Source: an uncultured Staphylococcaceae bacterium (GTDB lineage Bacteria; Bacillota_I; Bacilli_A; RFN20; CAG-826). Taken from it: 56,171 nucleotides of DNA. Location: positions 1 through 56,171 of the forward strand of contig CAYLSZ010000003.1 in NCBI GenBank assembly GCA_964386745.1, given 5' to 3'. The translations under genes were made by a program, and so were the position numbers. Under the pieces are notes generated by a model. The model saw only the letters and a list, made by a program, of their open reading frames with translations, had not been told where the DNA came from and searched no databases. Positions 5,676-13,296 of the stretch are shown one piece after another (positions within the stretch are counted from its first letter, which is position 1; the number at the start of each line of letters is the position of its first letter).

Positions 5676-7085
5676 ATGATATCTGATAAACTCGCAACGC
5701 ATATTTTAAATCTAGCCACTTCGACTGGAGGAGATTTTGCTGAACTTTATTTTGAAAACACATCAACAAAATCAATTTCTGTCGAAAATGGATTAGTTGA
5801 TAATATCTCGATTAAAACCGAATACGGAGTCGGTTTACGTATTTTAAATGGTCTTAAATCTTTTTATGGCTATACAAACGATATTTCAGCTAAAGGCTTA
5901 GAAGAATTAGCAACTAGTTTAATTGCTTCTTATAACGAAGCTAGAAAAGTTGATGAAATTACAGGATTAACTAAAGTTCCTGTCAAAAACTTTCACAAGA
6001 AATGCACTTCTTTACTTACAATTAGTGATGAAGATTTAATTGCTTATTTAAAAGCACCAAACCAAATTATTAGAAATTACGATCCTAGAATTGTTAAATG
6101 TACTACTGGAATTTTAATTCAATCCACTAATACTTTAATCTTAAATTCGAAAGGTCAAAAAATTAAAAACTATAGAGAATATGGCCGTTTACTTTGTAGT
6201 TCAATCGCTAAAGAAGGCGATAAACTTGAACAAAGATTCGATGGACCTGGCTCTCAAGGTGGATGGGAATATTTCACTACTACTTTAGACCGTGATGCTT
6301 TAGCAAAAAAACACGCCGAAAAACTTATTCTTATGCTTGGAGCAAAAGAATGTCCATCTGGAAAATATCCTGTAATCATAGGAAACGGTTGGGGAGGCGT
6401 TATCTTCCACGAAGCTTGTGGTCATCAACTTGAAGCCTCCGCAGTCGGTAAAGGTTTATCGGTCTTCTCAGGACAATTAGGAGAAAAAATCGCTAGCGAC
6501 ATAGTCTCTGCATATGATGATGGTACAATCGCTAATGAATGGGGCAGCAACCTCGTCGATGATGAAGGTAAGAAAACCAACAAAAACCTACTTATCGAAA
6601 ACGGCATTTTAAAAGGTTATTTAATTGATGACTTCACTGGCCGTAGATTAAATATGGAAGGTAATGGCGCTTGCCGTAGACAAAGTTATAAATACGAACC
6701 AACTAGTAGAATGTCGAATACCTACATTGCTAATGGCACTTCTACTAAAGATGAAATTATTGCTAACACCAAACTTGGTCTATACGCAGTAAGTTTCAAC
6801 GGCGGTAGTGTTAATCCAACTACAGGTGAATTCAACTTCGGCTGTAGCGAAGCTTATATCGTAAAAGATGGCAAAATCCTCGAACCAGTTCGTGGAGCTA
6901 TTTTAATTGGTAAGGCTACCGAAATTTTAAAACATATCGATATGGTTGGTAACGACTTAGACTTTGGACAAGGAAACTGTGGAGCAGCTAGTGGAAGCAT
7001 TCCAGTCGATGTTGGCCAACCAACAATTAGAGTCGACGAAATTACTGTCGGAGGTAGAGGAGGTAGTATCGATGAATATAAATAA
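5676..7085 (+). CDS. tldD: metalloprotease TldD
   Basis: RBS AAAGGAGGG. The HEACGH motif and C-terminal GNCGAASGSIPV are typical of the TldD/PmbA family. Confidence 0.9.
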   Translation: MISDKLATHILNLATSTGGDFAELYFENTSTKSISVENGLVDNISIKTEYGVGLRILNGLKSFYGYTNDISAKGLEELATSLIASYNEARKVDEITGLTKVPVKNFHKKCTSLLTISDEDLIAYLKAPNQIIRNYDPRIVKCTTGILIQSTNTLILNSKGQKIKNYREYGRLLCSSIAKEGDKLEQRFDGPGSQGGWEYFTTTLDRDALAKKHAEKLILMLGAKECPSGKYPVIIGNGWGGVIFHEACGHQLEASAVGKGLSVFSGQLGEKIASDIVSAYDDGTIANEWGSNLVDDEGKKTNKNLLIENGILKGYLIDDFTGRRLNMEGNGACRRQSYKYEPTSRMSNTYIANGTSTKDEIIANTKLGLYAVSFNGGSVNPTTGEFNFGCSEAYIVKDGKILEPVRGAILIGKATEILKHIDMVGNDLDFGQGNCGAASGSIPVDVGQPTIRVDEITVGGRGGSIDEYK

Positions 7086-8391
7086 ATTCTTTCAAAAAGC
7101 TAAAGAATCCGGTATTGAAGTAAGCGAATTAAATATTTCAACTAATACTAGTAATGGTATCGATGTCTTTAGAGGCGTCATCGAAAATAACACGACTTCT
7201 AAATTAAGCGCTATCTCAGCTAGAGGCATCTATAATGGCAAAATGGGTATCTGTATTACTGAAAAAGACAATAAAGATACAATCAACGATTTAATTAATG
7301 GCATTAAATCAACTGCCACTTATATTGAACGCGAAGAAGAGCCAATTATTTTTGAAGGTAGCGAAAAATATACTAAGAAAAATGTCTATAACAAGGAATT
7401 AGCAAAAGTTACTCCTCAACAAAAAATCGATCTTTTATTCAATATTGAAAAATATATTAAAGAGGCCGATTCGAGAGTAACTGACGTTCAAGTTTCTTAT
7501 AAAGATCAAGATTCTAAACACGTATTAACTAATTCTTATGGTTTGAAATTAGTTAGTAATACCAATTACTATGGCATCGTTGTTGAAGTCGTCGTTAAAC
7601 AAGGTGGAGAAACAAAAGTTGGCTTTGATGTTCTTTTAGGAAACGATTTTGCTACTATCGACTATAAAGCCTTTGCTCAATCAGTTTTAGACTTAGCATT
7701 AAATCAATTAAATGGTCAAAATATAAAGAGCGGAGCTTATAAAGCCGTATTAAGCCAAGATTGTGTCTCTCAATTACTTGATGTCATAATCGGTCACGCT
7801 TCGAGTGAAGACGTTCAAAAAGGTTCATCCAAGTATGTCGATAAACTTAACGAAAAACTCTTCTCAAATAAATTAACAGTTACTGAAGCACCATTAAACA
7901 AAAACGTCTTCTTTAGATATCATGACGATGAAGGTGTAGCTACATATAACAAAAAAATTATTGATAAAGGTGTCTTAACTACTTATTTATATAATCTTGA
8001 AACTGCTAAAAAAGATGGCGTTACTACGACTGGTAATGCAGATCGTAGAGGTAGCAAGATGGGTATTGGTTTTGGTAACCTTGTTATCAAACCTGGTAAA
8101 TTATCTCTTGAACAACTTTTTGAAAAAATTGGTAACGGTATTTATGTAACCGACTTCCATGGATTATTTGCAGGATTAAATCGTGCTAGCGGCGATTTCT
8201 CAGTTCAAGCTCAAGGCTTTAGAATTGAAAATGGTAAGAAAGTTGGTCCATTAGGCCTCTTCTCAGTTGCTGGCAATGTCTTCGATTTATTTAACGAAAT
8301 TTTAGCTATAGGAAGCGATACAAAACTATTAACTTCGAGTAATACTGTTCCTTCAATAGCGTTCAAAAAAGTTAAATATTCAGGCGTATAA
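7072..8391 (+). CDS. pmbA: metalloprotease PmbA (TldE)
   Basis: TldD/PmbA-family paralogue lacking HExxxH. ATG at 7072 follows GGAGGTAG and overlaps the tldD end by 14 nt. The track start at 6964 lies inside tldD. Confidence 0.85.
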   Translation: MNINKFFQKAKESGIEVSELNISTNTSNGIDVFRGVIENNTTSKLSAISARGIYNGKMGICITEKDNKDTINDLINGIKSTATYIEREEEPIIFEGSEKYTKKNVYNKELAKVTPQQKIDLLFNIEKYIKEADSRVTDVQVSYKDQDSKHVLTNSYGLKLVSNTNYYGIVVEVVVKQGGETKVGFDVLLGNDFATIDYKAFAQSVLDLALNQLNGQNIKSGAYKAVLSQDCVSQLLDVIIGHASSEDVQKGSSKYVDKLNEKLFSNKLTVTEAPLNKNVFFRYHDDEGVATYNKKIIDKGVLTTYLYNLETAKKDGVTTTGNADRRGSKMGIGFGNLVIKPGKLSLEQLFEKIGNGIYVTDFHGLFAGLNRASGDFSVQAQGFRIENGKKVGPLGLFSVAGNVFDLFNEILAIGSDTKLLTSSNTVPSIAFKKVKYSGV

Positions 8392-8415
8392 ACATTAGAT
8401 TAAAACAATAAAAAT

Positions 8416-8449
8416 GGGTTTATGTTTTTCACATAAACCCTTTATTTTT
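8416..8449 (+). terminator. rho-independent terminator after pmbA
   Basis: Stem GGGTTTATG / CATAAACCC with a 7-nt loop, followed by TTTATTTTT. Its 3' half doubles as the left arm of repeat copy D. Confidence 0.8.
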
Positions 8450-8482
8450 GGAAAAATCCCTGCAGATCTCAACTATTTTTTT
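8435..8482 (+). repeat. dispersed ~50-bp repeat, copy D (forward)
   Basis: AAACCCTTTATTTTTGGAAAAATCCCTGCAGATCTCAACTATTTTTTT. CTGCAG at 8460-8465. It shares a 29-bp identical core with copy E. Confidence 0.9.
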
Positions 8483-8488
8483 AAAATT

Positions 8489-9583
8489 TTAATTTTCTAT
8501 ATTGTTTGCAGATATATCAGCACGATATTTTTCTCTTATTTTATCAATCGAAATTAACGCGCCATCTCGTAAAACATAAAGGCTATCAAAAGCATTCACT
8601 CGTCTATCTTTGTTCATCATTAAACCAGCAACTTCGTGCATGGATTTAATGTCTCCTTTATATTCTAAATGGCCTTCAAGATCTTTAAGAACAGCTCTTT
8701 CTCCATTCTTATTTATAAACTCTTCACCAATCTTATAATATCCAGCCTCAATCATTTCTTTCATTGAAACTTTTAAAGGTTTAATGTCATAAACAGCTTC
8801 TTCAACAGGTCCGATATTTTCTTCGACGCTTTGGAGTCTTCTTTCGCCATAAAGACAATATTTTTTATCTAATTCGATCATTGTGTAATTTCTACCGGTT
8901 TGCTTTGCAACTGCACCAGTAGTCATCGTTCCACCAAAAGGATCTAAAACGTTATCGCCTAAAGAAGTAAATAATACTATTGCTCTATATAATAACGCTT
9001 CAGGTTTTTGCGTATTGTGAAGTTTATTATTGTCATCATCTTTTAATCTTTCATTACCACTACATACAGGAAATTCCCGAATTGAACCCATTTGCTTTCC
9101 TCCATTGAGGTATTTTCCTGTCTTGTAATTAAAAGTGAATTTGGATTTTTTGCTTTTTGCAGCCCATATGATTGTTTCGTGACTATTATTTAGTCTAGTT
9201 CCGCCAAAATTAGGTGTAGGGTTAGACTTCTTCCAAACGATATCATTAATTACCCAAAAACCTAATTCTCTAAGAATATTTCCAATTTCAAAAATTGATT
9301 GCATACCGGAAATTACACATATTGTTCCATTATCTTTTAATAATCTATGTACTTCTTTTAACCAATTTCTTGTAAATTCTTTATAAACATCTAGCGAAGG
9401 GAATTTATCCCATTCATCATCACAGCCATCAAATTCTGTGCCTTCAACTCTGTATAATTTTTTGCCTTCTTCGATTTGCATAAAATAAGGTGGATCGGCA
9501 AAACAAAAATCAAAGCTTTTATCAGGAAGGCTTTTCATTACACTTATTGTCTCACCGTTTAAAATTTTATTAATAAAATCCAT
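8489..9583 (-). CDS. beta-class N6-adenine DNA methyltransferase, CcrM / M.HinfI-like (probable GANTC specificity)
   Basis: Motif IV FADPPYF is N-terminal and motif I VLDPFGGTMTTG is C-terminal. Blocks WVINDIVWKKSNPTPNF, HETIIWA and HNTQKPEALLYR closely match CcrM as I recall it, and a CcrM-type C-terminal domain of about 90 aa is present. Confidence 0.85.
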   Translation of the reverse strand: MDFINKILNGETISVMKSLPDKSFDFCFADPPYFMQIEEGKKLYRVEGTEFDGCDDEWDKFPSLDVYKEFTRNWLKEVHRLLKDNGTICVISGMQSIFEIGNILRELGFWVINDIVWKKSNPTPNFGGTRLNNSHETIIWAAKSKKSKFTFNYKTGKYLNGGKQMGSIREFPVCSGNERLKDDDNNKLHNTQKPEALLYRAIVLFTSLGDNVLDPFGGTMTTGAVAKQTGRNYTMIELDKKYCLYGERRLQSVEENIGPVEEAVYDIKPLKVSMKEMIEAGYYKIGEEFINKNGERAVLKDLEGHLEYKGDIKSMHEVAGLMMNKDRRVNAFDSLYVLRDGALISIDKIREKYRADISANNIEN

Positions 9584-9591
9584 ATTACTAC

Positions 9592-10419
9592 CTATATTCC
9601 ACGTATCGCTTTTACCTTAGCAAGATTATCGCCTGTGCCAAAAAGTTCTTCACGAATAATTTCGTATCTTTCGTCATTACATAACTTTTCTAAGCGTGTT
9701 CTATCTAATTCTAACAGGGCGTCAAAAATAATTTTATCATTACCAAAATCAGGTAAATTAATTATAAAGTCGTCATTGTGTTCTTCTTTATATCTTTCAA
9801 TCATACTGACCATTTCTGACCAAGCATATTCGCTTCCTTCCAAATATTTAAATAATTCATCACCATAAAAAAGCATCAACTCGACATTTGGTGAAACAAT
9901 TTTCTTCATTTCTTCGTTGTAATACTTTTTGTTTTTAATTAAATGGTCGTCAACAAACCGCATAATACCAACAATTTTATTAGAAGGATATAAATCTCTA
10001 AGCGCGTTTATCTTTTTGATAAAGTTTTCAAATTGTCCTCTTTTCTTAGTAGAATCATGGTCGTCCCTAATTTTCATTTCAACAACATAAACTGTATCGT
10101 TGTCTTTAAAAAGTTGGTCAACCATCAAATCTTTACCTAAGGAATTTAGTATGTTTTTATCGATATTTGTATAACCAATTCTTTCTATATATTTCGTGAC
10201 AAGATTTTCAACAAAATCTCCAAACTTAATTTCGCGACTTTGAGTAACATTTTGTATTATTTTGCTTTTTAATCCAGACAATCTAAATAAACCAAAATAT
10301 CGTTCAGGATAGTCGATTATTTTTTCTAAAAGTTCAACCCAAAAATCCTTTCCTACGCTTATATGGGAATCGATTAAATCGCAAAATTCTTCATATGTTA
10401 AGTAGCTCATTTTCGACAT
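9592..10419 (-). CDS. putative type II restriction endonuclease (partner of the methyltransferase)
   Basis: Lies 8 nt upstream of the MTase on the same strand. Candidate PD-(D/E)XK motif in NDTVYVVEMKI (D-x6-E-x-K). No homology is recognisable by eye; the call rests on context. Confidence 0.5.
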   Translation of the reverse strand: MSKMSYLTYEEFCDLIDSHISVGKDFWVELLEKIIDYPERYFGLFRLSGLKSKIIQNVTQSREIKFGDFVENLVTKYIERIGYTNIDKNILNSLGKDLMVDQLFKDNDTVYVVEMKIRDDHDSTKKRGQFENFIKKINALRDLYPSNKIVGIMRFVDDHLIKNKKYYNEEMKKIVSPNVELMLFYGDELFKYLEGSEYAWSEMVSMIERYKEEHNDDFIINLPDFGNDKIIFDALLELDRTRLEKLCNDERYEIIREELFGTGDNLAKVKAIRGI

Positions 10420-10465
10420 GCTTTAATTCTACCAAATATACTACTTATAGACAATTTGAACCGAA

Positions 10466-10494
10466 ACAAAAAAGCGCACGTTTTAATGTGCGCA
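10466..10494 (-). terminator. rho-independent terminator after degV
   Basis: Stem GCGCAC / GTGCGC followed by TTTTTTG on the minus strand. Confidence 0.7.
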
Positions 10495-10562
10495 TCTTCG
10501 TCAATTTAATAACCTTCTTTATGTTGTTTTTTAGTTCTTTCTTTCGCTAGAATAACTTTAAT

Positions 10563-10610
10563 AAAACCCGCGTTTTTAAAGAAAATCCCTGCAGATCTCA
10601 ACTATTTTTT
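10563..10610 (+). repeat. dispersed ~50-bp repeat, copy E (forward)
   Basis: AAAACCCGCGTTTTTAAAGAAAATCCCTGCAGATCTCAACTATTTTTT. CTGCAG at 10589-10594. On the other strand it supplies the AAA AAA TAG end of degV. Confidence 0.9.
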
Positions 10611-11456
10611 CAAAATATAGAGAATTCCAAGTGTTCTAGGACCGCAGTGCGAACTGATTGTGCAACCAGCTCTTGTAACGTGTAAATGACCTTCAGGAAC
10701 GAGATCTTTTATCTCGTTATATGTCTCTTCAACAAGATCATCCATGCGACCACTATGAGTAATAAATACGTGTTCTAAATCGATGTTTAGCAAGTCGTTT
10801 TTAAACTCTTCAATTTGTAAAGCGATACCTTTTTTAAGAGTGCCTCTAGGCATCTTTGCGACTTTTAATTCGTTATTTGTAACCTTAGCAATTGGGTGAA
10901 TTTTTAATGCGTGTGCAACAAGTTTTGTTAAACCTGAACATCTTCCACCTTTATATAAATAGTCGAGTCTATCTATACAAAATTTAACGCTTAGTTGAGG
11001 TACAGTTTCATTGAGTTCATCAACGATTTCTTTTAAACTTTTGCCTTCATCTTTAAGTTTACAAGCTTTTAAAACTAATAAACCAATGCCAGTCGAAAGT
11101 GATTTGCTATCAACCGCCATTACTTTTCCTTCAGGGAATTCGTTAATAGCTAACAATGCATTTTGATAAGTCGAAGATAAACCGCTGCCTATACCGGTAT
11201 AAAAAACTTCGTTTCCTTTACCGATTTCTACCTTAAACGCTTCGATAAATTCATTAACATTAATAGCTCCGGTCTTAGGTAAATTGCCGGTTTTTTCAAC
11301 CTTATCGTATAAAAGTTCGGAATTAATATCGATTCCGTCTAGATAATCTCCTTCACTAGGAACACTTACGTGAAGAGGAATTATCTTAATATTATTTTCC
11401 TTAATTTGTTCATTAGACAAATCACATGTTGAGTCCGTAAAAATAGTTATAGCCAT
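10602..11456 (-). CDS. degV: DegV-family fatty-acid-binding protein
   Basis: MAITIFTDSTCDL N-terminus, about 284 aa, typical DegV layout. Confidence 0.85.
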   Translation of the reverse strand: MAITIFTDSTCDLSNEQIKENNIKIIPLHVSVPSEGDYLDGIDINSELLYDKVEKTGNLPKTGAINVNEFIEAFKVEIGKGNEVFYTGIGSGLSSTYQNALLAINEFPEGKVMAVDSKSLSTGIGLLVLKACKLKDEGKSLKEIVDELNETVPQLSVKFCIDRLDYLYKGGRCSGLTKLVAHALKIHPIAKVTNNELKVAKMPRGTLKKGIALQIEEFKNDLLNIDLEHVFITHSGRMDDLVEETYNEIKDLVPEGHLHVTRAGCTISSHCGPRTLGILYILKK

Positions 11457-11571
11457 AAAAACCTCCTCGAATACTAAAAATTATATCACCCGTTTTTTCA
11501 AAACTCCTGTAATTAAAATTCATGTTTGTATACAAAAGTCACTAAAATATAGAACAAAGTTCTATATCTAA

Positions 11572-12696
11572 CTAAGCAACATTAATTTTTTGTTTAACTT
11601 CTTCTAATAATTTTTCTTGAGAATCTCTTTCAGAAGCCACTAATCTTTTAAGAATTTTCTTAGCTCTTTGTAAGGCTCTATCAACTTCGCTAACGCTTTT
11701 TTCGACTAATCCTTCAATTAATAAATATAGTCTAACAGCGTCCATTGTGTTACATGAAGTAACATATTTTTTATCCTTTTCATCAAACTCTTCTTTATAG
11801 AAAGCATATGCTTCATCGTATTTATCATCGAAGAATAAGATGATAGCCTTTGTAATTTTAATTTCTAGAGCAGTTGCTTTAGAAATCTTATCTTTATGTT
11901 CTAAGATATATTCGATAATTTCGTTAGCTTTTTCTGTATCTGTCGAGGCATATTTAATGGCACTCATAAGATTAACTCTGGCGGTAAAATCGGTGATATT
12001 TTCAAATGTTTTGATTTCACCATGATCAATTCCATAAATATTGTCGGATTGAACTTTTAAAAATTCATTATAAGCCTCGATATTAATCTTCTTATTTAAA
12101 AGCATTAATCGATATCCATCATTAAGCGAATCTAATCTATGTGGCCAATAGTTATAAATAATCATCATAGCTGCAACATAAACTACGACTAAATATCCAT
12201 ATTTAAGAAACATAATGCCGCCACCAGTCGCACTATAATTCATATTTTCAATATAGGTAAATACTAATGCTACCCCAATAATTTCAATTAAAAACATCAC
12301 TAAAGGTGCTAAAACATAATATATAGGATTACATTTTTCTTTCTTTGGAGTGATAACAGTTTCGCCAGCTAAGCCATCAAAACTTCTAAACATTCCAAAT
12401 TTTCTTTTAAATGTGTCGTTTTCAGTTTTTACTTTATAAATTGCAAAACCTACAGCGTTAAATGAAACGATTTCATATCCGCCAAGTTTTGCTCCAATAA
12501 CGTGACCTATTTCAAATAGGAATCCGTTAATAATTACACCAATAATTAAAGCAATAATTAAAAATAAAAATGCACCACCTTCACTAGGTATATATCCGCT
12601 TTCTACAGCTGGTGCAATCGAAGTTACCCCTACAACAATCGCAAATACGATCATAACGATGTAGGCAATAATACTCATTACTTCATCTTTTGTCAT
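11572..12696 (-). CDS. hypothetical membrane protein with helical-repeat C-terminal domain
   Basis: ATG at 12696 is preceded by AAAGGAG. The N-terminal half has about 6 TM helices and an EIGHVIGAKLGG segment, a degenerate M50-like HExxH lacking the first His. The C-terminal half is soluble and TPR-like. Confidence 0.5.
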   Translation of the reverse strand: MTKDEVMSIIAYIVMIVFAIVVGVTSIAPAVESGYIPSEGGAFLFLIIALIIGVIINGFLFEIGHVIGAKLGGYEIVSFNAVGFAIYKVKTENDTFKRKFGMFRSFDGLAGETVITPKKEKCNPIYYVLAPLVMFLIEIIGVALVFTYIENMNYSATGGGIMFLKYGYLVVVYVAAMMIIYNYWPHRLDSLNDGYRLMLLNKKINIEAYNEFLKVQSDNIYGIDHGEIKTFENITDFTARVNLMSAIKYASTDTEKANEIIEYILEHKDKISKATALEIKITKAIILFFDDKYDEAYAFYKEEFDEKDKKYVTSCNTMDAVRLYLLIEGLVEKSVSEVDRALQRAKKILKRLVASERDSQEKLLEEVKQKINVA

Positions 12697-12777: not shown

Positions 12778-13296
12778 TTATAATAGGATTGTCGGTAGAT
12801 TTTTAAATATCGTCGAGAAATCAAATTCGATTTTTTTATAGTCTTCATAATCCCCATTTACAAACCTTCGATACATGTAATAGGTAAGTCCTGAGGCCAA
12901 GAAATTGAGCGATTCATCGTTATTTAATAGATAGCTAAGTTTCTTAAATTTCAGTAACGATTTAAGGTTTTTAAATAGGTACGAAAAGATATAATTTTTC
13001 AAAATATCGTCGGCATAAGTATCGAGTATCAAACGTAAAAAATGGTCGTTTTTTTGGAAAAAACCCTGCAGATCCTGGATAATTTTTTGAAAACTGTGGT
13101 TATCAGAACACTTCAAATTGAAGTTATAAAAGATGTTTGCTATGAGGTTATAGATACTTTCAAAGTGGTAGTAAAAAGTCTGTCTTTTGACTCTTGCTCT
13201 TTCGCAAATTTTATTGACAGAGATATCTTCTAACCTCTCATTTTCAAGCATTTCTATAAATAAATCGCGAAACATCTTTTCGCTATTTTTAGCCAT
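12778..13296 (-). CDS. TetR-family regulator (DhaS-like C-terminal type)
   Basis: SVNKICERARVKRQTFYYHFESIYNL is a TetR HTH. Confidence 0.75.
   Translation of the reverse strand: MAKNSEKMFRDLFIEMLENERLEDISVNKICERARVKRQTFYYHFESIYNLIANIFYNFNLKCSDNHSFQKIIQDLQGFFQKNDHFLRLILDTYADDILKNYIFSYLFKNLKSLLKFKKLSYLLNNDESLNFLASGLTYYMYRRFVNGDYEDYKKIEFDFSTIFKNLPTILL
13037..13088 (+). repeat. dispersed ~50-bp repeat, copy F (forward), inside the TetR CDS
   Basis: AAAAAATGGTCGTTTTTTTGGAAAAAACCCTGCAGATCCTGGATAATTTTTT. CTGCAG at 13066-13071. Translated on the other strand as IIQDLQGFFQKNDHF. Confidence 0.8.

What the first reader, a model, noticed from the sequence alone, without database searches (positions are those of the whole stretch)
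8435..10610. Restriction-modification cassette bracketed by near-identical direct copies of the repeat
Copies D (8435-8482) and E (10563-10610) have the same orientation. They share a 29-bp identical stretch, AAAATCCCTGCAGATCTCAACTATTTTTT, which is the best-matching pair in the window. The 2.1 kb between them holds only the R and M genes plus the degV terminator. The flanks are core genes: pmbA with its terminator on one side and degV on the other. This is the arrangement expected if the cassette entered, or can be lost, by recombination between repeat copies. It would link the repeat family to accessory-gene flux.
Basis: partly seen in the sequence, partly recalled or inferred. Interest (0 to 1): 0.65.

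Follow-up and report, generated by a model that had tools for sequence, protein, structure and literature searches.

The report
Restriction-modification cassette inserted at a dispersed repeat
A two-gene DNA-defence cassette (a GANTC restriction enzyme and its methylase) is present in some strains of this uncultured small-genome bacterium and absent in others. Its ends lie exactly inside two copies of the genome's abundant 55-base repeat, so it is a clean but not unprecedented case of a short repeat serving as the docking or excision point for an accessory gene cassette.

Summary

- **The cassette.** Copies D (8432-8488) and E (10560-10617) of a 213-copy repeat family are direct and share a 29-nt identical core. 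They bracket a 2,129-bp unit: terminator, promoter, an HpyAIV-family endonuclease gene and a CcrM/M.HinfI-like methyltransferase gene.
- **The ancestral state.** In 16 of 19 same-genus genomes pmbA and degV are directly adjacent. R is absent from all 40 relatives.
- **Empty sites.** Two contigs from closely related strains (92-95% identity) carry pmbA, the terminator, one repeat copy and degV. That single copy is the left arm of D, the core, and the right arm of E.
- **Not a target duplication.** Both repeat arms that lie inside the insert score as true family arms, so the incoming DNA carried its own complete repeat. This is the circular permutation expected from a single crossover between two repeat copies, or its reverse, a D x E deletion.
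- **Spread between strains.** In another strain the cassette is 100% identical while tldD and pmbA differ by 6-7%. The identical block starts about 100 nt left of D, so strain-to-strain transfer used homology in the flanking genes, as with Neisseria minimal mobile elements.
- **What carries no weight.** The D/E similarity alone is not significant, composition is host-like, and no cassette-borne recombinase exists.

This is a new member of a known kind.

The parts
7072..8391 (+). pmbA (TldD/PmbA family), the left core flank. The real start is probably the ATG at 7072, not the TTG at 6964.
   Evidence: Pfam PmbA_TldD domains 1-3. A 439-aa product is called on the other contigs. Adjacent to degV in 16 of 19 genus relatives.
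8416..8440 (.). Resident bidirectional terminator hairpin. It serves pmbA, and now also the R-M operon. In the empty allele it serves pmbA and degV.
   Evidence: Terminator scan finds it on both strands. It is present in both empty-site contigs.
8432..8488 (+). Repeat copy D, a hybrid. Its left arm is resident DNA overlapping the terminator stem; its right arm lies inside the insert and abuts the M stop codon.
   Evidence: nhmmer 47.5 bits. The left arm is shared with the empty alleles. The right arm scores 6.9 bits, in the top 0.08% of background.
8453..8481 (+). The 29-nt core of D, identical to the core of E. The crossover must lie in this interval.
8482..10610 (.). The 2,129-bp segment present here and absent from the empty alleles. 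The boundaries are arbitrary within the 29-nt identity.
   Evidence: Start-to-start spacing of 2129. BLAST of L026 and L027 against the window.
8489..9583 (-). M gene: a beta-class N6-adenine DNA methyltransferase, CcrM/M.HinfI-like, with inferred GANTC specificity.
   Evidence: PF01555, 182 bits. NF050803 CcrM matches full length at 352 bits, below that equivalog's cut-off. The motifs DPPY and FGG are visible in the translation.
9592..10419 (-). R gene: an HpyAIV-family type II restriction endonuclease, with inferred GANTC specificity.
   Evidence: NF045832, 264.7 bits against a cut-off of 160, over the full-length model. PF09520 HinfI is recorded on its homologs.
10426..10454 (-). Promoter-like site for the R-M operon: TTGTCT, 17 nt, TG-extended TAGAAT.
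   Evidence: This is a consensus match only.
10474..10493 (-). Terminator hairpin carried by the cassette (GCGCAC..GTGCGC followed by T6). It now terminates degV. In the circular permutation it would terminate the R-M operon.
   Evidence: It is absent from the empty alleles.
10560..10617 (+). Repeat copy E, a hybrid. Its left arm lies inside the insert; its right arm is resident DNA overlapping the last codons and stop of degV.
   Evidence: nhmmer 52.9 bits. The left arm scores 18.0 bits, and none of 200,000 random positions reach that. The right arm is shared with the empty alleles.
10602..11456 (-). degV (fatty-acid-binding DegV/FakB family), the right core flank. Its K-K-stop codons are the repeat's CTATTTTTT.
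   Evidence: PF02645, 230.8 bits. Found in 37 of 41 genomes, own included. Relatives end with the same length of C-terminus.

Best explanation
A self-contained 2.13-kb type II restriction-modification cassette sits in the convergent pmbA/degV intergenic region. It consists of a terminator, a promoter, an HpyAIV-family R gene and a CcrM/HinfI-like M gene, and its inferred specificity is GANTC. It is an insertion/deletion polymorphism within a population of closely related strains.

The indel was made by recombination between two complete copies of the genome's abundant ~55-nt CCCTGCAG repeat, with the crossover inside their 29-nt identical core.
- **Insertion direction:** DNA carrying the order promoter-R-M-repeat-terminator recombined with the resident repeat copy downstream of degV. 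This is a Campbell-type single crossover. It left two hybrid direct copies, D and E, and swapped the terminators of degV and the cassette.
- **Reverse direction:** a D x E crossover deletes the cassette precisely and leaves one hybrid copy.

The recombination most likely used host homologous recombination (RecA is present) rather than a dedicated site-specific enzyme.

Once installed, the cassette moves between strains as a block with adjoining core DNA, by homologous recombination in pmbA and around degV, probably after DNA uptake.

**Shown:** the anatomy, the empty alleles, the hybrid structure, the identity block, and absence from relatives. **Inferred:** the direction of the event, RecA dependence, the route of DNA entry, and GANTC specificity.
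For: - Two empty alleles have one repeat copy made of the left arm of D, the core and the right arm of E. Both single copies are full-length family members, at 40.4 and 44.2 bits.
- Both repeat arms that lie inside the insert are true family arms. The left arm of E scores 18.0 bits, above the family's 90th percentile, and 0 of 200,000 random sites reach it. The right arm of D scores 6.9 bits, in the top 0.08% of background. So the incoming DNA had its own whole repeat.
- The ancestral state is empty. pmbA and degV are adjacent in 16 of 19 genus relatives. R is absent from all 40 relatives. M has only homologs of 42% identity or less, which are shorter.
- In contig L024 (SRR7039258), tldD differs by 5.7% and pmbA by 7.0%, yet positions 8338-10417 are identical apart from one T-run indel. 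The same 8340-8450 stretch carries 9-14 differences in the empty-allele strains. The breakpoint therefore lies left of D, inside pmbA.
- L023 shows degV with no differences, then 6% divergence from 11522 onward.
- No recombinase is present in the cassette. No Y1 transposase or serine recombinase is found in the genome. RecA (418 bits) and DprA (203 bits) are present.
Against: - The D/E similarity alone is not significant (P about 0.31), and each copy has a better partner elsewhere.
- A 29-nt identity is near the lower limit for RecA-dependent exchange (general knowledge, not tested here).
- No circular form, donor context or second location of the cassette was found. The closest R outside this species is 54% identical and sits in unrelated contexts without the repeat.
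- The direction of the event, insertion or deletion, cannot be read from the junctions.
- The right end of the identity block rests on a contig picked for having an identical DegV. That contig comes from a different sample than L024.
- All strain evidence comes from short metagenome contigs, which could be strain mosaics.
- The genome has three tyrosine recombinases of untested role.
Confidence: 0.7

Rival explanations
1. Site-specific recombination. The repeat would be an att-like site read by a host-encoded recombinase, for example one of the three tyrosine recombinases. Cassettes carrying one repeat would then circularise and dock at any of about 200 repeat copies, in the manner of an integron.
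For: - The junctions are precise and lie inside a conserved asymmetric core around the CTGCAG palindrome.
- The insert carries a complete repeat in circular permutation.
- Three PF00589 recombinase genes are present in the genome.
- Adjacent direct pairs are slightly enriched for long identities: 4 of 78 at 26 nt or more, against 1.5% of all pairs, p = 0.03.
Against: - No recombinase lies in or next to the cassette.
- No Y1 or serine recombinase is present in the genome.
- The repeat has no arm symmetry of the Xer/attC type.
- About 40% of copies fall inside my crude ORF calls, and one overlaps the native C-terminal codons of degV. That is odd for att sites.
- The identity block between strains is not bounded by the repeats.
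- Other well-matched adjacent pairs enclose genes that look housekeeping by eye.
Confidence: 0.12
2. Insertion with long target duplication, as described for restriction-modification units in Helicobacter, Haemophilus and Neisseria. The cassette would have entered by a mechanism that duplicates about 30 bp of target, and the resemblance of its ends to the repeat family would be incidental.
For: An R+M unit under 20 kb, without mobility genes, is flanked by direct repeats that align to a single copy at an empty site. These match criteria (i) and (ii) of PMC2853133. Most reported cases are in naturally competent species.
Against: - The duplicated identity is 29 nt, under the paper's criterion of more than 30 bp.
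- The repeat is a 213-copy family, not a unique target.
- The arms inside the insert are independent, high-scoring family arms that differ from the resident arms. A duplication cannot produce that.
Confidence: 0.08
3. Coincidence of position. Repeats sit at most gene ends, so any inserted operon ends up bracketed by them. The cassette would have entered by illegitimate recombination unrelated to the repeats, and the empty alleles simply never received it.
For: The repeat occurs about every 4.7 kb and favours convergent over divergent intergenic regions, 36 against 8. 39 adjacent direct pairs lie within 2.2 kb. P is about 0.31 for a 29-nt match among adjacent direct pairs.
Against: The occupied allele equals the empty allele plus a segment whose two ends fall within the same 29-nt identity, with no extra or missing bases. 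It also reconstitutes two full repeats from one resident and one incoming copy. Illegitimate joins would not do this.
Confidence: 0.08

Closest known systems
Minimal mobile elements (MMEs) of Neisseria (Saunders & Snyder 2002; Snyder et al. 2007; definition quoted in PMC3082526)
   Same: A small cassette without mobility genes sits between two conserved genes and is present or absent among strains. It is exchanged by homologous recombination in the conserved flanks, and here the identity block runs into pmbA and degV. Many MMEs are restriction-modification systems (own knowledge).
   Different: Only presence or absence was seen here, not alternative cassettes. The original insertion junctions lie in copies of a dispersed repeat, which is not part of the MME definition. 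The host is an uncultured small-genome member of the Bacilli, and its natural competence is unproven.
Restriction-modification units inserted with long target duplication (Nobusato et al. 2000; Furuta, Abe & Kobayashi 2010, PMC2853133)
   Same: R and M genes are flanked by direct repeats. An empty site with one copy exists in a related genome. No transposase or integrase is present. The repeat spans a neighbouring gene's stop codon, so that gene stays intact.
   Different: The repeat is not a duplicated unique target but two independent members of a 213-copy family. The identity is 29 nt, below their criterion of more than 30 bp. That study removed high-copy repeats from its screen.
Haemophilus influenzae hif pilus cluster between purE and pepN, flanked by direct copies of the intergenic dyad sequence, with one copy left in strains lacking hif (Mhlanga-Mutangadura et al. 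1998; recalled from own knowledge, not retrieved here)
   Same: An accessory gene block is bracketed by direct copies of a genome-wide short repeat between two core genes, and the empty alleles keep a single copy.
   Different: The repeat type differs (that one is a dyad or ERIC-like element; this one is asymmetric). The cargo differs. The host phylum differs.
HpyAIV / HinfI GANTC restriction-modification systems (NCBIfam NF045832; Pfam PF09520; CcrM/M.HinfI beta-class methyltransferases)
   Same: R matches the HpyAIV model above its cut-off. M has the full-length CcrM/M.HinfI architecture. The two genes are adjacent and co-oriented.
   Different: The nearest R outside this species is only 54% identical. 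Specificity and activity are untested.
Integron gene cassettes (attC x attI recombination by IntI)
   Same: It works in a similar way on paper: a small unit carrying one recombination site in circular permutation docks at a matching chromosomal site.
   Different: There is no IntI next to the site and no attC-type imperfect palindrome. The cassette has its own promoter and terminator. The sites are scattered over the whole genome and also lie inside genes.

Membership tests
Type II R-M system of the HpyAIV/HinfI (GANTC) kind | The endonuclease matches the HpyAIV family model above the curated cut-off | tested here: met
   NF045832 scores 264.7 bits against a cut-off of 160. Residues 7-268 match model positions 1-268 of 269.
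Type II R-M system of the HpyAIV/HinfI (GANTC) kind | A cognate beta-class N6-adenine methyltransferase (DPPY before FxGxG) lies adjacent and co-oriented | tested here: met
   PF01555 scores 182 bits. The CcrM model NF050803 aligns over 3-349 of 350 positions at 352 bits, below the 830-bit equivalog cut-off. The motifs FADPPY and DPFGG occur in that order. The gap to R is 8 nt.
Type II R-M system of the HpyAIV/HinfI (GANTC) kind | Cleavage and methylation at GANTC | not testable with these tools
   Inferred from family membership only. GANTC is not notably avoided in the genome: observed/expected is 0.91, sixth lowest of 16 comparable words.
R-M insertion with long target duplication (PMC2853133) | R and M lie inside an insert under 20 kb with no mobility genes | tested here: met
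   The insert is 2,129 bp and holds only R, M, a promoter and a terminator.
R-M insertion with long target duplication (PMC2853133) | The flanking direct repeats align to a single copy at an empty site in a related genome | tested here: met
   L026 and L027.
R-M insertion with long target duplication (PMC2853133) | The repeat is a duplication, longer than 30 bp, of the unique target sequence | tested here: not met
   The identity is 29 nt. The repeat belongs to a 213-copy family. The arms inside the insert are independent family arms.
Minimal mobile element (Neisseria definition, PMC3082526) | The region lies between two conserved genes and its content differs among strains | tested here: met
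   pmbA and degV are adjacent in 16 of 19 relatives. Occupied alleles: the window, L024 and L025. Empty alleles: L026 and L027. Only presence or absence was seen.
Minimal mobile element (Neisseria definition, PMC3082526) | Incorporation by homologous recombination in the conserved flanks | tested here: met
   Divergence drops sharply from 7% to 0% at 8338, inside pmbA. degV is identical and divergence resumes at 11522 in L023. The right side rests on a separate contig.
Minimal mobile element (Neisseria definition, PMC3082526) | Transfer by natural transformation | not testable with these tools
   DprA and RecA are present. The Pfam Competence domain was not detected. A 673-aa protein has a ComEC-like layout: a weak DUF4131 match, a polytopic region and a metallo-beta-lactamase domain.
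Integron cassette | An IntI integrase with attI lies next to the cassette array, and attC is an imperfect palindrome | tested here: not met
   No recombinase lies within about 4 kb on either side. The repeat consensus is asymmetric.
DNA uptake signal (USS/DUS-like) as the identity of the repeat | A strongly over-represented word occurs equally on both strands and overlies native sequence without adding residues | tested here: inconclusive
   AACCCTGCAGA occurs 68 times forward and 71 reverse, against 0 for the reversed control. There are 213 HMM copies. The right arm of E coincides with degV's native K-K-stop, and relatives' DegV proteins end at the same length. Uptake bias is untestable here. 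Earlier notes of this scan reached the same reading and were treated as leads only.

The most novel reading that the evidence does not exclude
The ~55-nt CCCTGCAG repeat, which earlier notes read as a candidate DNA-uptake signal, may also serve as portable homology or an att-like site. Self-contained gene cassettes carrying one copy could then dock at, leave and hop among more than 200 marked sites with no element-encoded recombinase. That would be a genome-wide, integron-like cassette exchange system coupled to DNA uptake in a reduced-genome lineage of Bacilli.
Probability: 0.1. Interest if true: 0.75.

Novelty: new member of a known kind. Interest (0 to 1): 0.48.

Why it matters
- It gives a fully resolved natural example, with occupied allele, two empty alleles and a transfer tract, of how a defence cassette enters and leaves the chromosome of an uncultured small-genome gut bacterium that has few classical mobile elements.
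- It shows that the lineage's abundant short repeat can act as a recombination substrate with consequences for gene content, whatever its primary function is.
- It provides concrete junction sequences for PCR or read-based tests of excision.
- The population is polymorphic for a GANTC system, so it should be split into methylated and unmethylated strains. That could structure DNA exchange and phage susceptibility among them.

Tried and rejected
- **Compositional foreignness.** GC is 0.29-0.34 in the cassette and 0.30-0.36 in the flanks. Codon typicality is at the 75th percentile for R and the 94th for M, and GC3 is normal.
- **GANTC avoidance** as a sign of long residence. Observed/expected is 0.91, which is unremarkable.
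- **Donor search.** The cassette has no second copy in the genome. The exact M protein occurs only at this locus. The closest R elsewhere is 54% identical. Its contexts (L028-L031, GC 26% and 40%) have no family repeat, and no flanking direct repeat beyond a single shared 12-mer in L031.
- **Generalisation to other repeat-bracketed intervals.** The next best adjacent direct pairs (C6, C15, C16, C2) enclose genes that look housekeeping by eye: an SDR, a lactate dehydrogenase, a PduL-like protein and an aminopeptidase. I did not scan these against families.
- **Dedicated recombinases.** No Y1/RAYT and no serine recombinase were found.
- **Target-duplication model.** Rejected on the arm scores.
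- **Contig breaks at 10588** in L022 and L023 as a sign of allele mixtures. They are explained instead by a 31-nt identity between E and a copy on contig C15.
- **Read-level tests.** The look-up of sequencing runs and read laying were closed, so no read-level test of circles, heteroplasmy or junction support was possible.
Full report
**Setting**

The window is contig C3 of a 1.0-Mb, 61-contig, 34% GC assembly that is 86% complete. By protein names of homologs and earlier notes of this scan, it is an uncultured small-genome member of the Bacilli.

**Observation**

- The 29-mer AAAATCCCTGCAGATCTCAACTATTTTTT occurs at 8453 and 10582 on the same strand.
- It is the core of a dispersed repeat with the consensus AAAAAC..C..TTTTT.A..AAAAACCCTGCAGAtCtCcA.TATTTTT..AAAA.
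- An HMM built from the genome's copies finds 213 copies at E < 1e-3, and 15 of them lie in this window. D is at 8432-8488 (47.5 bits) and E at 10560-10617 (52.9 bits).
- Copies occur equally on both strands. They favour convergent over divergent intergenic regions, 36 against 8. About 40% fall inside my crude ORF calls.

**Anatomy of the interval**

| Feature | Coordinates | Note |
|---|---|---|
| pmbA | ends 8391 | left flank |
| Bidirectional terminator hairpin | 8416-8440 | its stem overlaps the left arm of D |
| M gene | 8489-9583, minus | PF01555; full-length CcrM/M.HinfI-like; DPPY then FGG |
| R gene | 9592-10419, minus | HpyAIV family, 264.7 bits against a cut-off of 160 |
| Promoter-like site | 10454-10426 | TTGTCT-17-TG-TAGAAT |
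| Terminator | 10493-10474 | minus strand |
| Spacer | about 60 nt | |
| Repeat E | 10560-10617 | its CTATTTTTT supplies the K-K-stop of degV |
| degV | 10602-11456, minus | right flank |

An earlier first-reader note called the R gene an unrecognisable endonuclease. NCBIfam recognises it clearly. GANTC specificity is inferred from both family assignments and was not tested.

**Is the bracket more than chance?**

Not by itself.
- D and E share more than 99.5% of all pairs do: 107 of 22,578 pairs reach 29 nt.
- D has a 30-nt partner, and E has partners of 35, 31 and 30 nt.
- Sixteen copies share the 24-mer CCCTGCAGATCTCAACTATTTTTT.
- There are 78 adjacent direct pairs within 4.5 kb. The chance that at least one reaches 29 nt is about 0.31.

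**Comparative evidence: relatives**

- In 16 of 19 same-genus loci, pmbA and degV are convergent neighbours. They are separated by a short spacer, roughly 80-170 bp, holding one or two hairpin terminators.
- R is absent from all 40 relatives.
- M has only homologs of 42% identity or less, and these are shorter.
- The empty state is therefore ancestral for the genus.

**Comparative evidence: empty alleles**

Two contigs from close relatives of the window strain are empty sites.
- L026 (ENA ERZ25039390, 2,213 bp) is 92% identical.
- L027 (Logan SRR7039257, 3,217 bp) is 95% identical over the stretch from degV to the ATPase gene.
- Both read pmbA, the same terminator hairpin, one repeat, then degV.

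In L027 the site reads:

...GGGTTTATGTTTCTCACATAAACCCTTTATTTTTAGAAAAATCCCTGCAGATCTCAACTATTTTTCAAAATATAGAG...

That is the left arm of D, the core, and the right arm of E. L026 aligns to the window as 1-1474 = 7014-8487 and 1439-2213 = 10581-11355. The 36-nt overlap is the repeat itself. Both single copies are full-length family members.

**What kind of event**

I built position weight matrices from the other copies and scored the two arms that lie inside the insert.
- The left arm of E (AAAACCCGCGTTTTTAAAG) scores 18.0 bits. This is above the family's 90th percentile, and 0 of 200,000 random genome positions reach it.
- The right arm of D scores 6.9 bits, in the top 0.08% of background.

The inserted DNA therefore carried a complete repeat of its own, so this is not a target duplication. 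Joining the two ends of the insert gives the order promoter, R, M, repeat, 60 nt, terminator. This is the same stop-repeat-terminator layout that degV has in the empty allele.

The present arrangement is the circular permutation expected from a single crossover between an incoming repeat and the resident one. As a side effect, degV now uses the cassette's terminator and the R-M operon uses the pmbA terminator. The reverse crossover, D x E, gives the empty allele exactly. The junctions do not tell which direction produced the alleles seen today.

**Spread between strains**

Contig L024 (SRR7039258) carries tldD, pmbA, D, M and R.
- tldD differs from the window by 5.7% and pmbA by 7.0%.
- From 8338 to the contig end at 10417 there is no substitution, only one T-run indel at 8475.
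- The stretch 8340-8450 is not intrinsically invariant. The empty-allele strains carry 9 and 14 differences there.

The identical block therefore begins about 100 nt left of D, inside pmbA.

On the other side, L023 (SRR7039262) has degV with zero differences, then 36 differences from 11522 to 12127. That contig was retrieved through its identical DegV and comes from another sample, so the right boundary is less secure.

The pattern is that of a tract of about 3 kb moved by homologous recombination in the core flanks. This defines the minimal mobile elements of Neisseria. At least four diverged pmbA haplotypes exist (the window's, L024, L026 and L027), and two of them (the window's and L024) carry the identical cassette.

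Caveat: these are short metagenome contigs. A mosaic assembly is unlikely, because an abundant empty-allele strain would have broken L024 at D. It cannot be excluded without reads.

**Machinery**

- The cassette has no recombinase.
- The genome has RecA, DprA and three tyrosine recombinases of unknown role.
- It has no Y1 transposase and no serine recombinase.
- The Pfam Competence domain was not detected. A 673-aa polytopic protein with a weak DUF4131 match and a C-terminal metallo-beta-lactamase domain has the ComEC layout.

**Nature of the repeat**

Earlier notes of this scan read the family as a DNA-uptake-signal-like word. I treated these as leads. My own data are compatible with that reading.
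- The core is strand-symmetric and hugely over-represented. AACCCTGCAGA occurs 68 times forward and 71 reverse, against 0 for the reversed control. Several same-genus species carry 7-40 copies.
- The right arm of E overlies degV's native C-terminal codons without lengthening the protein.
- One relative (G013, L006) has a degenerate copy at the orthologous site.

None of this proves uptake function.

**Negative results**

- No compositional anomaly.
- No GANTC avoidance.
- No donor and no second location.
- R-M homologs at 53-54% identity sit in unrelated contexts without the repeat.
- Other well-matched adjacent repeat pairs enclose genes that look housekeeping by eye. Adjacent direct pairs are only weakly enriched for long identities (p = 0.03). 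A general role of the repeat in accessory-gene flux therefore remains unshown.

**Comparison with the known**

Restriction-modification units flanked by direct repeats, with empty sites in related genomes, are well documented. They have been classed as site-specific insertion, long target duplication, or chance insertion between repeats, mostly in naturally competent species (PMC2853133).

This case fails the target-duplication criterion and lacks a recombinase. It is best described as a minimal-mobile-element-like cassette whose founding insertion, or precise loss, went through copies of a dispersed host repeat. From my own knowledge, the Haemophilus hif cluster between copies of the intergenic dyad sequence is the nearest parallel.

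**Verdict**

- It is a new member of a known kind.
- Interest is moderate. It would rise if a survey of strain-level indels showed that the repeat is used generally as a docking site.
- The read-based tools were closed, so circles and within-sample polymorphism could not be tested.

Noticed in passing
window 8475 (D) and 10605-10610 (E); L024, L027: The T-run in the repeat's right arm varies in length between strains. D has T7 in the window and T8 in L024. At the degV stop, the window and L026 have T6 and L027 has T5. By table 11 the L027 variant changes the DegV C-terminus from ..ILKK* to ..ILKNS*.
   Followed up: partly
window 13037-13095; L027 554-612: A repeat copy (43.1 bits) lies inside the 172-aa TetR-like ORF and is translated as ..FQKIIQDLQGFFQKNDH... 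It is kept at the same place in the 95%-identical strain (39.7 bits).
   Followed up: partly
L006 (G013) pmbA-degV spacer: A same-genus species whose DegV is only 58% identical has a degenerate repeat core (CTTTGCAAAACTCAACTATTTTTT) at the orthologous site just past the degV stop. That genome carries 19 exact cores.
   Followed up: no
L007-L010 (G017, G012, G005, G016) pmbA-degV spacers: These relatives share a different conserved hairpin in the same spacer (..GAAATCC[GA][CT]..GG[GT]TT.. between inverted CTCTA/TAGAG arms). It may be a terminator or their own lineage-specific repeat.
   Followed up: no
genome contig C1:65895-67916 (minus strand): A 673-aa polytopic protein has a weak DUF4131 match and a metallo-beta-lactamase domain (64.7 bits), which is the ComEC layout. 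Yet the Pfam Competence domain PF03772 finds nothing in the genome. A small ORF lies directly upstream (67913-68461).
   Followed up: partly
window 10588-10617 and genome C15:25677: E shares a 31-nt identity with a copy on contig C15. This explains why two independent Logan contigs (L022, L023) end at 10588. Sixteen copies genome-wide share the 24-mer CCCTGCAGATCTCAACTATTTTTT, which suggests a young or homogenised subfamily.
   Followed up: partly
window 6964-7085: The longest-ORF start of pmbA (TTG at 6964) overlaps tldD by 122 nt. Other contigs call a 439-aa product, which puts the start at the ATG at 7072 with a 14-nt overlap.
   Followed up: yes
genome-wide (search of 40 relatives): The exact repeat core AACCCTGCAGA occurs 139 times in this genome, 40 times in G018, 19 in G013, 15 in G009 and 7-8 in G015 and G011. 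It is absent or occurs only once to a few times in all the others, including every genome outside the genus. The family is therefore confined to part of one genus and is most expanded here.
   Followed up: partly
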